Shown piece by piece: positions 3,327 through 4,415 of a stretch of 8,395 bases of DNA. Every line of letters starts with the position of its first letter. Within the stretch, counting starts at the first letter, position 1. A program made the position numbers and the translations under genes. The notes below the pieces were generated by a model. That model was not told where the DNA came from, ran no database searches, and was given only the letters and a program-made list of their open reading frames with translations. Source of the stretch: Escherichia coli (GTDB taxonomy: Bacteria > Pseudomonadota > Gammaproteobacteria > Enterobacterales > Enterobacteriaceae); the NCBI RefSeq assembly GCF_003334815.1, contig NZ_QOWO01000065.1. One strand, 5' to 3'.

Positions 3327-3630
3327 TTTTAAATTTTCAGATATTCACAATCTCATTATGGAGAACTTGTTTTTTTTGAGTCTGCTTGCGACCCTGACAG
3401 GTGTCAATAATATTTTATTTATCATGCTTATTATTTTATACGGATTAATTCTTCTTCTTATTTTTCGACATACTATAAATCTTCTGTTTTTTCTATTATT
3501 TCTTTTGTGTGGTCATTTTGCTAATTTATATATTTATAGTTAAAGTTATTAATTTCGCCAAAAGCAAAAAAAATATAAACCTCATTCATTTACAGCAAAA
3601 ACAAAAGTTATTGATTATGTAGTGACAATC
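3327..3630 (-). promoter_or_regulatory. Extremely AT-rich upstream region of tpsB (presumed promoter; candidate H-NS-silenced region)
   Basis: About 300 bp of very AT-rich, homopolymer-rich DNA between the tpsB start and the point where tssC homology ends. No -35/-10 pair could be assigned confidently by eye. The AT richness and the position upstream of a horizontally acquired operon suggest a xenogeneic-silencing target (inference). Confidence 0.3.
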
Positions 3631-3942
3631 AAGCTTATAAAGCCCCGTCCATGCTGACTCAACTTTCTGAAACTCAGTTGCATGCATAATCAGACTAAGC
3701 TGCTCAGACATCAGCTTATCAATATCTGCAATTCGCTTTTCAATACTACCGATTAAATCACTGTTAATGACTAAAGAACCACTGGCAACTTCACCAAGAA
3801 AATTATTAACCTGCAATTTAAATCTGTTTTTTTCAGAATCCTGTCTTACAACCCTAGTATTATTTATAATTTCTTCAAGACAATCATCTGTAGCATACTG
3901 TGTTTCAGTCTGCCCTAATGTTGATGTCATTGTCATGTTCAC
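3586..3942 (-). pseudogene. tssC: Type VI secretion sheath large subunit TssC (VipB/ImpC), N-terminal fragment only (truncated after about 100 codons)
   Basis: The translation contains the conserved TssC N-terminal motif (..LSLIMHATEFQKVESAWTGLYKL; compare the VipB-type ...HxxxFQxxESAWRGL). Homology ends at about 3631 and the reading frame then runs 14 unrelated codons (DCHYIINNFCFCCK) into AT-rich DNA before a stop. The start (GTG at 3942) overlaps the tssB stop in a GTGA arrangement. Full-length TssC is roughly 500 aa, so about 80% of the gene is missing. Confidence 0.8.
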
Positions 3943-4415
3943 TCCTTACTGTCATCCTTTTCAGGATTGCTATTAGTATTCACCAATAACTCCCGAAGTT
4001 TTTCTTTCAGTTTTTCATTACTTGCGGCCCTGTTTCGCAGGTCACAAAGGTGAGAGCGCAATTCCGATAATTTTCTGAGACAATCAACCTGTTGAATCAC
4101 ATTATCGGGGGAAAAGTCGTCTTTGCAATTAAACTGCAGTTCGATATCCAGTTTCCCTTCAGTGCCAGGAATAACACTATCCACCATAAAATGAGCCTTC
4201 GGGCTCATTGATGCCATAACTTCATCAAAATTGTCTTTGTCTATACTAATGAATTTTCGCTCTCTCAATGGTTTTTCTGATGAAGAGTACTCACCCAAAA
4301 CACCAATGACGAGGGGTAACTCTTTCGCGGTTTCGGCATCTCCGGTTTCAACATCGTAGGTTATCTGTACTCGTGGAGGTCGGGCCTTATCAAGTTTGTG
4401 TTGTGTATTACTCAC
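3939..4415 (-). CDS. tssB: Type VI secretion sheath small subunit TssB (VipA/ImpB)
   Basis: 158 aa, with the characteristic TssB N-terminal motif (PRVQITYDVETGDAETAKELPLVIGVLGEY..) and a charged helical C-terminus. GTG start at 4415 preceded by AGGA. It sits immediately upstream of, and is translationally coupled to, the tssC fragment. Appears intact. Confidence 0.85.
   Translation of the reverse strand: MSNTQHKLDKARPPRVQITYDVETGDAETAKELPLVIGVLGEYSSSEKPLRERKFISIDKDNFDEVMASMSPKAHFMVDSVIPGTEGKLDIELQFNCKDDFSPDNVIQQVDCLRKLSELRSHLCDLRNRAASNEKLKEKLRELLVNTNSNPEKDDSKE

What the first reader, a model, noticed from the sequence alone, without database searches (positions are those of the whole stretch)
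3586..4415. Orphaned T6SS sheath genes: intact tssB, tssC cut after about 100 codons
tssB appears full-length with its own RBS and upstream region, while tssC retains only its N-terminal segment (through the conserved FQKVESAWTGL motif) fused to 14 out-of-frame-looking codons. Other T6SS core genes would be expected upstream of tssB, beyond the repeat/IS91 region, and are not in this window, so the cluster is at least interrupted and probably decayed. A residual TssB plus a TssC N-terminal peptide could still be expressed and might interfere with another T6SS in the same cell (speculative).
Basis: partly seen in the sequence, partly recalled or inferred. Interest (0 to 1): 0.55.

Follow-up and report, generated by a model that had tools for sequence, protein, structure and literature searches.

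The report
Leftover stub of plasmid T6SS sheath genes
This is a 1-kb dead remnant of a type VI secretion gene cluster, with tssB intact and only the first fifth of tssC, left in the patchwork accessory region of a common E. coli IncFII plasmid; it is an ordinary gene relic, not a new system.

Summary
On the minus strand, tssB (4415..3939, 158 aa) is full length and 100% identical to TssB of intact clusters. tssC (3936..3586) keeps codons 1-102 of 492, then 14 foreign codons and a stop.

Only window 3630-4666 (1,037 bp) is T6SS-derived. It is 99.6% identical to an intact Sci-2/aai-type (T6SS-3) island on Salmonella and E. coli plasmids.

In every intact relative tssB is the first gene, and the other core genes follow tssC. 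That position is now occupied by an unrelated two-partner secretion module (tpsBA).

The left break is a 3-bp microhomology crossover (TTG) with native tpsB-upstream DNA. The right break abuts the last 24 codons of an rpn-family gene.

The same mosaic is found on more than 70 E. coli IncFII contigs. No other T6SS core gene is on the sister plasmid checked almost in full. Sister plasmids have also lost the tssB start codon or most of the relic.

The fragment does keep the ClpV2-docking helix, so a decoy effect is conceivable. That binding is cluster-specific, and the one complete host genome has no cognate system.

Verdict: ordinary decay relic, low interest.

The parts
3939..4415 (-). tssB, intact (158 aa, GTG start); first gene of the former T6SS-3 (Sci-2/aai-type) cluster
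   Evidence: TIGR03358 at 163 bits against cut-off 97. 100% aa identity to TssB of the intact pSNE1 cluster. Pfam T6SS_VipA on identical products. Aligns over residues 3-149 to the solved sheath small subunit 9n4v_B.
3586..3936 (-). tssC' pseudogene. Codons 1-102 of 492 (nt 3936..3630) are fused to 14 codons of tpsB-upstream DNA (3629..3589), followed by stop TGA (3588..3586).
   Evidence: 101/102 identity to intact TssC residues 1-102. TIGR03355 at 69.6 bits, below the 271.5 cut-off because of the truncation. Tail origin shown by L037. Residues 15-29 equal the EAEC TssC2 ClpV2-binding helix (PMC5048182).
4416..4666 (-). 251 bp of native T6SS upstream (5') DNA retained ahead of tssB; promoter content unknown
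   Evidence: 99.6% identical to pSNE1 up to 4666 and 93% to pNMBU-W12E19_01 up to 4662. No convincing match to the mapped EAEC aaiA AggR-dependent promoter (PMC6392122).
3630..3632 (.). Left recombination junction: 3-bp microhomology CAA (+) / TTG (-), shared by the tssC parent and the tpsB-upstream parent
   Evidence: T6SS homology covers 3630-4666 and tpsBA-parent homology covers 76-3632. Three-way sequence comparison.
4667..4742 (+). Right junction. T6SS DNA ends at 4666. Position 4667 onward is the 3' terminal remnant (last 24 codons, KGIDSETITSITGISADELAIMRH*) of an rpn-family gene.
   Evidence: Alignment. Translation. 88% nt match to the end of a Plesiomonas ORF that scores TIGR01784 (Rpn family) at 130 bits against cut-off 52.
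76..3632 (-). Unrelated two-partner secretion module (tpsB 3326..1593, tpsA 1538..297) occupying the place of the lost T6SS genes
   Evidence: 99% identical over 76-3632 to L035/L037/L038/L042, where it lies between dispersin-like genes and no T6SS is present. Pfam POTRA_2/ShlB and TPS. TIGR01901.
5830..7592 (+). IS91 copy (orf121 5920..6285, tnpA 6240..7370; terIS CTCG at 5830) upstream of the relic; not the cause of the tssC break
   Evidence: NF033538 at 277 bits. Element ends taken from comparison with other copies. Orientation test against the published target and termination rules (PMC13181058).

Best explanation
The locus is a non-functional relic of a plasmid-borne T6SS-3 (Sci-2/aai-type) gene cluster.

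Proposed history (inferred). An ancestral IncFII-type plasmid carried the full tssB-to-tssH operon, about 20 kb. Two illegitimate recombination events removed all but 1,037 bp of it. One was a crossover at a 3-bp TTG microhomology, which joined tssC codon 102/103 to DNA 306 bp upstream of a foreign tpsB gene. The other joined the tssB upstream region, 251 bp before the start codon, to the tail of an rpn-family gene.

What remains. An intact tssB and a 116-codon tssC' ORF remain. No sheath, tube, baseplate or membrane complex can be made from this replicon.

Why tssB looks healthy. It looks intact only because the relic is young: 4 SNPs in 1,037 bp from the nearest intact island. It is not because it is maintained by selection.

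What is shown and what is inferred. Shown: gene identity, both break points, absence of other core genes, spread of the same mosaic, and further decay in sister plasmids. Inferred: the order of events, and that the relic has no function.
For: Identity and truncation.

Extent of T6SS-derived DNA: only 3630-4666, 99.6% identical to the intact pSNE1 island.

Gene order: in intact islands tssB is first and all other core genes lie downstream.

Junctions: the left junction is resolved to a 3-bp microhomology using both parental sequences. The right junction abuts an rpn 3' remnant.

No other core genes: tblastn with 16 T6SS proteins found only tssB and tssC(1-102) in the window, in 69.5 of the 71.4 kb of sister plasmid pJNE25-005_2, and in eight related contigs.

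Spread: the exact 116-aa TssC' is on 51 contigs and a 116-aa variant on 20 more, indexed in 77 blocks. All contexts read are the same E. coli IncFII arrangement.

Further decay in sisters:
- L005 has the tssB start codon changed GTG to GTA.
- pJNE25-005_2 has window 3860-4353 replaced by a 295-bp inverted-repeat-bounded insert.
- p2010C_5028-3 and L019 keep only 70 bp of T6SS-derived DNA, window 4597-4666.

Expected instability: TssB is destabilised without TssC, and the smallest TssC fragment shown to bind TssB is 212 aa (PMC3840085).
Against: - tssB is perfectly intact, with an RBS and 251 bp of native upstream DNA.
- tssC' retains the experimentally defined ClpV2-docking helix, so expression and some protein-level activity cannot be excluded.
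- The relic copies are nearly identical (0-1 SNP per 1,081 bp). Sequence data therefore cannot distinguish neutrality from selection.
- No intrinsic terminator is predicted between tssC' and tpsB, so the relic could contribute transcription to tpsBA.
- No ancestor plasmid carrying the full island joined to the same rpn junction was found.
Confidence: 0.88

Rival explanations
1. The relic has been co-opted as a transcriptional and 5' leader unit. The surviving tssB promoter reads through tssB-tssC' into the co-oriented tpsBA genes, which lost the distal half of their own upstream region at the junction.
For: All four ORFs are on the minus strand. No intrinsic terminator is predicted in 3200-5300. 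Only 306 bp of the 647-bp dispersin-tpsB intergenic region seen in L037 is retained. A promoter-like hexamer pair spans the junction at 3641..3614, but the region's total count of such sites is not above the shuffled controls.
Against: In pJNE25-005_2 most of tssB and the start of tssC' are replaced by an insert while tpsBA stays intact. No promoter upstream of tssB was detected by the scan. The mapped aaiA promoter is not conserved here. There are no expression data.
Confidence: 0.06
2. Expressed TssB plus the TssC(1-102) peptide act as a dominant-negative or decoy against a resident T6SS, for example by occupying the ClpV N-domain.
For: TssC' residues 15-29 (ATDDCLEEIINNTRV) differ by one residue from the TssC2 helix peptide, and that helix is required for ClpV2-TssC2 binding (PMC5048182). 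The VipB N-terminal helix with its LLDEII-type motif docks into ClpV-N (PMC4239648). Both ORFs have ribosome-binding sites.
Against: - ClpV-TssC binding is cluster-specific, so ClpV1 does not bind TssC2 (PMC5048182). Only a T6SS-3 host could be affected.
- T6SS-3-like tssBC occurs in only 101 of 5,426 complete E. coli genomes. Strain JNE25-005 has no copy other than the relic.
- Peptide affinities measured for other ClpV/TssC pairs are weak, 26-39 uM (PMC5048182); ClpV2-Nt could not be purified, so none exists for the TssC2 helix.
- TssB is unstable without full TssC, and 102 aa is under half of the smallest tested TssB-binding fragment (PMC3840085).
- Sister plasmids have lost the tssB start codon or most of the relic.
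Confidence: 0.04
3. The short tssC is a natural split or short gene, or the junction is an assembly or cloning chimera.
For: A HindIII site (AAGCTT, 3631-3636) sits at the break point.
Against: Intact relatives at 99.6% DNA identity continue uninterrupted to 492 aa. DNA homology, not just reading frame, ends at 3630. The same junction is found in more than 70 independent assemblies, including a complete circular plasmid. Sequence beyond the junction is 99% identical to natural tpsBA loci.
Confidence: 0.01

Closest known systems
EAEC Sci-2 / Aai type VI secretion cluster (T6SS-3), genes aaiA (tssB2) and aaiB (tssC2)
   Same: tssB-tssC' is 89% identical at DNA level to the EAEC 042 and O104:H4 locus. 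TssB falls in the same 90%-identity cluster as proteins named AaiA. TssC' carries the TssC2 ClpV2-binding helix (PMC5048182). Gene order begins with tssB-tssC (PMC6392122).
   Different: Only 1,037 bp survive. About 80% of tssC and all other core genes are absent. The upstream region is not homologous to the mapped AggR-dependent aaiA promoter.
Intact plasmid-borne T6SS-3 islands on IncFII-type and related plasmids (for example Salmonella Newport pSNE1-2010K-2159 and E. coli pNMBU-W12E19_01)
   Same: 99.6% (pSNE1) and 93% (pNMBU) DNA identity over window 3630-4666. TssB is identical. The neighbourhood is a similar plasmid backbone; some of these plasmids also carry IncFII repA and the mcb microcin genes.
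   Different: Those plasmids carry the whole operon, tssB through tssH/VasL. Here it is cut at tssC codon 102 and at 251 bp upstream of tssB.
Gene remnants made by illegitimate (microhomology) recombination in plasmid accessory regions
   Same: There is a 3-bp microhomology at the crossover and no IS end or target duplication at the junction. The flanks are themselves fragments: an rpn tail, an arylsulfatase remnant and IS3/IS91.
   Different: Nothing distinctive. This is a typical example.

Membership tests
TssB / VipA (TIGR03358, PF05591) | Full-length profile match above the curated cut-off | tested here: met
   163 bits against cut-off 97.25, profile positions 1-150 of 160. 100% identity to TssB of an intact cluster.
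TssB / VipA (TIGR03358, PF05591) | Encoded immediately upstream of tssC within a complete T6SS core gene set | tested here: not met
   It is adjacent to tssC', but no other core gene is in the window or on the sister plasmid (tblastn).
TssC / VipB (TIGR03355, PF05943 + PF18945) | Protein of about 490 aa matching the whole profile above the cut-off | tested here: not met
   69.6 bits against cut-off 271.5. Only profile positions 3-87 of 473 are matched, and 102 of 492 residues are retained.
TssC / VipB (TIGR03355, PF05943 + PF18945) | N-terminal ClpV-docking helix | tested here: met
   Residues 15-29 ATDDCLEEIINNTRV against the EAEC TssC2 peptide ATDDCLEEIINNTRA (sequence; PMC5048182). Actual binding was not tested.
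Functional type VI secretion system | Presence of the 13 core genes tssA-tssM on the replicon or in the genome | tested here: not met
   tblastn with 16 cluster proteins found only tssB and tssC(1-102) in the window, in 69.5 of the 71.4 kb of pJNE25-005_2, and in eight related contigs. The host chromosome of the window itself could not be examined.
T6SS-3 (Sci-2/Aai) subtype | Close sequence relationship and tssB-first gene order shared with the EAEC sci-2/aai cluster | tested here: met
   89% nt identity to the EAEC 042 locus. AaiA-named proteins are in the same 90% cluster. The gene order of intact relatives is shown.
Cargo of IS91 one-ended transposition | Cargo lies beyond terIS and ends at a CTTG/GTTC/CTCG tetranucleotide on the transposase strand | tested here: not met
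   The relic does lie beyond terIS (CTCG at 5830). However, the tetranucleotide at 3630-3633 reads CAAG on the IS91 strand, and the break is on the wrong side of it. The junction is explained by TTG microhomology with the tpsB-upstream parent (rules from PMC13181058).

The most novel reading that the evidence does not exclude
A conjugative IncFII plasmid lineage keeps tssB plus a 102-residue TssC head carrying the ClpV2-docking helix. In this reading the pair acts as a small anti-T6SS-3 decoy that dampens sheath recycling in hosts carrying a Sci-2/aai-type system.
Probability: 0.03. Interest if true: 0.5.

Novelty: already known. Interest (0 to 1): 0.1.

Why it matters
It matters little in itself. 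It is a well-resolved example of how plasmid accessory regions collect gene fragments. Both parental sequences of one junction were recovered, and they show a 3-bp microhomology crossover.

Practical points:
- Annotation pipelines and T6SS-detection screens that count tssB or tssC hits will flag this plasmid lineage, which is on more than 70 E. coli assemblies. It has no secretion system.
- aaiA/tssB-type markers should not be read as evidence of a T6SS-3 on these plasmids.

Tried and rejected
1. IS91 one-ended transposition as the source of the fragment. This looked attractive because both junctions begin with CAAG and IS91 lies upstream with terIS facing the relic. It was rejected because the tetranucleotide is on the wrong strand and the break is on the wrong side of it (PMC13181058). 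The left junction is fully explained by TTG microhomology with the tpsB-upstream parent.

2. HindIII cloning artefact. AAGCTT sits at the break, but the junction occurs in more than 70 independent natural assemblies.

3. A single internal deletion between tssC and a tpsBA module at the far end of the island. No T6SS genes lie near any tpsBA relative, and no tpsBA lies near the intact islands examined. This is unsupported but not excluded.

4. Conservation of the AggR-dependent aaiA promoter upstream of tssB. There is no convincing match. AggR-like W7TATC motifs occur, but that is expected in AT-rich DNA.

5. Rfam scan of the whole window: no hits.

6. My first guess that TpsA (413 aa) was truncated by the IS3 element. 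It was rejected because relatives in other contexts are also 409-413 aa.

7. My guess that the 182-bp repeats explained the thousands of chromosomal hits. It was rejected because that repeat occurs in only 2 of 5,426 genomes.

8. The parent of the right-hand flank (4667 onward) could not be found. Related plasmids share it only from 4801, and a Plesiomonas plasmid matches 4668-4895 at 88%.

Full report
**What is there**

On the minus strand the window encodes tssB (4415..3939, GTG start, 158 aa). Three bases after its stop codon (TAA, 3941..3939) comes a short tssC ORF (ATG 3936..3586, 116 aa). The ORF tool's GTG at 3942 overlaps the AAGGAG ribosome-binding site and is not the start annotated in intact relatives.

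TssB matches TIGR03358 at 163 bits against a cut-off of 97. The short ORF matches the first 87 positions of the 473-position TssC model TIGR03355 at E = 2e-19.

TssB is 157/157 identical to TssB of an intact cluster on Salmonella Newport plasmid pSNE1. The short ORF is 101/102 identical to residues 1-102 of that cluster's 492-aa TssC, and then diverges into DCHYIINNFCFCCK*. Both proteins align to solved sheath subunits over the expected regions.

**How much T6SS DNA is left, and which kind**

BLAST against intact islands shows that only window 3630-4666 (1,037 bp) is T6SS-derived. Identity is 99.6% to pSNE1, 93% to E. coli pNMBU-W12E19_01 and 89% to the chromosomal locus of EAEC 042 and O104:H4 strains.

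TssB sits in the same 90%-identity cluster as proteins named AaiA. The relic therefore descends from a Sci-2/Aai-type (T6SS-3) island.

In every intact relative inspected, tssB is the first gene. It is followed by tssC, hcp, tssE, tssF, tssG, vgrG, DUF6931, PAAR, tssA, tssJ, tssK, tssL, tssM, tssH and VasL. In EAEC 042 the cluster runs aaiA to aaiU (PMC6392122).

They lay downstream of tssC, where a tpsB/tpsA two-partner secretion pair now sits.

**The junctions**

Left junction. A tpsBA module 99% identical to window 76-3632 occurs on other E. coli plasmid contigs (L035, L037, L038, L042). There it lies between dispersin-like genes with no T6SS nearby. The three sequences line up as follows:
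- tssC parent: ...TATAAGC**TTG**TTCAGT...
- tpsB-upstream parent: ...TTTTCA**TTG**ATTGTCAC...
- window: ...TATAAGC**TTG**ATTGTCAC...

The crossover lies within a 3-bp microhomology (window 3630-3632). The 14 tail codons are native tpsB-upstream DNA, not frameshifted tssC.

Right junction. T6SS homology ends at 4666. From 4668 the plus strand encodes KGIDSETITSITGISADELAIMRH*. This matches, at 88% nucleotide identity, the end of a Plesiomonas ORF that scores as an Rpn-family nuclease (TIGR01784, 130 bits against cut-off 52). The relic is thus bounded on both sides by illegitimate joints to other fragments.

I also tested whether IS91 (5830-7592, terIS CTCG at 5830) had carried the fragment by one-ended transposition. 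The CAAG at the break is on the wrong strand, and the break is on the wrong side of it, for the published rules (PMC13181058). That idea is rejected.

**Distribution and decay**

- The exact 116-aa TssC' is on 51 contigs and a one-residue variant is on 20 more.
- All contexts read are the same E. coli IncFII arrangement: repA, yacAB, IS91, rpn remnants, tssB-tssC', tpsBA, IS3, then phytase-like/PhoX or mcb.
- One contig, GCA_002190155.1 LYBH01000046.1, is 100% identical to window 57-8395.
- tblastn with 16 proteins of an intact island found nothing but tssB and tssC(1-102) in the window, in 69.5 of the 71.4 kb of conjugative sister plasmid pJNE25-005_2, and in eight related contigs.
- Relic copies differ by 0-1 SNP per 1,081 bp. 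The lineage is too young for a selection test.
- Structural decay is nevertheless visible in sisters:
  - L005 has the tssB start codon changed from GTG to GTA.
  - pJNE25-005_2 has window 3860-4353 replaced by a 295-bp insert with inverted-repeat ends. That leaves 21 codons of tssB and a chimeric ORF.
  - p2010C_5028-3 and L019 retain only the outermost 70 bp (4597-4666), joined to the microcin B17 genes.

**Could the products do anything?**

TssC' residues 15-29 (ATDDCLEEIINNTRV) are, bar one residue, the TssC2 N-terminal helix peptide ATDDCLEEIINNTRA. Deleting that helix abolishes ClpV2-TssC2 binding in EAEC (PMC5048182). It corresponds to the LLDEII-type ClpV-docking helix of VipB (PMC4239648).

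Several points limit it:
- ClpV-TssC recognition is cluster-specific, so ClpV1 does not bind TssC2 (PMC5048182).
- Peptide affinities measured for other ClpV/TssC pairs are tens of micromolar (PMC5048182); ClpV2-Nt could not be purified, so none exists for the TssC2 helix.
- TssB-sfGFP falls to 6-8% without TssC, and the smallest TssC fragment shown to bind TssB is 212 residues (PMC3840085).
- T6SS-3-like tssBC occurs in only 101 of 5,426 complete E. coli genomes. The one complete genome carrying this plasmid lineage has no second copy.

Whether tssB is transcribed is unknown. The retained 251 bp does not resemble the mapped aaiA promoter (PMC6392122), and the promoter scan is at background. 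No terminator is predicted between tssC' and the co-oriented tpsB, so read-through into tpsBA is possible but untested.

**Verdict**

This is a real, correctly spotted, but ordinary pseudogene relic. It is already present and annotated in public records, for example as 'putative type VI secretion protein' and 'contractile sheath domain-containing protein'.

The best explanation is neutral decay of a plasmid T6SS-3 island by microhomology-mediated recombination (confidence about 0.88). Co-option as a promoter for tpsBA (about 0.06) and a ClpV2 decoy role (about 0.04) remain minor possibilities. Interest is low.

Noticed in passing
window 297-3326 (-); L035-L042, L016, L017: The tpsB/tpsA pair is an unusual short two-partner secretion system. 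TpsA is only 409-413 aa in all relatives, so that is its natural length. TpsB is about 27% identical to ETEC EtpB. The module is absent from PLSDB. Elsewhere it lies between dispersin-like genes next to an ABC-transporter gene on E. coli plasmid contigs. Its function is unknown.
   Followed up: partly
window 4712-4893 and 5433-5614 (+): Two 182-bp direct repeats (93% identical) each carry a 35-nt near-perfect hairpin (GCGCCCGCAATGAC...GTCATTGCGGGGGC). They begin inside the last codons of rpn-family gene remnants. The repeat occurs in only 2 of 5,426 complete E. coli genomes and on one Plesiomonas plasmid. In related plasmids homology breaks inside the repeat, at window 4801.
   Followed up: partly
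window 4933-5199 (-): An 88-aa ORF with a signal-peptide-like N-terminus is named 'lipoprotein' by one source. It is conserved, with length variants of 76-94 aa, on E. coli and Salmonella plasmid contigs. No family match was found.
   Followed up: no
window 7336-7344 (+), inside IS91 tnpA: This IS91 copy lacks about 63-66 bp that other copies have near the 3' end of tnpA. Its ORF is 376 aa, whereas other copies are annotated at 1,188 bp. It may be defective.
   Followed up: no
window 3631-3636: A HindIII site (AAGCTT) lies directly at the tssC break point. It is judged a coincidence, because the junction is found in many natural assemblies.
   Followed up: yes
L001 12558-12852 (pJNE25-005_2): A 295-bp insert with roughly 25-bp terminal inverted repeats (TAGGGGCTCCGTGGGAATTTCTGCGA ... 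TCGCAGAAATGCCCACGGAACCCCT) replaces 494 bp of the relic. Part of it recurs next to an IS3 remnant on the same plasmid. It looks like a MITE or IS remnant.
   Followed up: partly
L004 6001-6070 and L019 (p2010C_5028-3 type plasmids): Sister plasmids without tssB still carry the outermost 70 bp of T6SS-upstream DNA (window 4597-4666) fused to the microcin B17 region. This is an even smaller footprint of the same island.
   Followed up: yes
window 7687-8234 (-): A yacA/yacB (RelB/RelE-type) toxin-antitoxin pair of the IncFII backbone.
   Followed up: no
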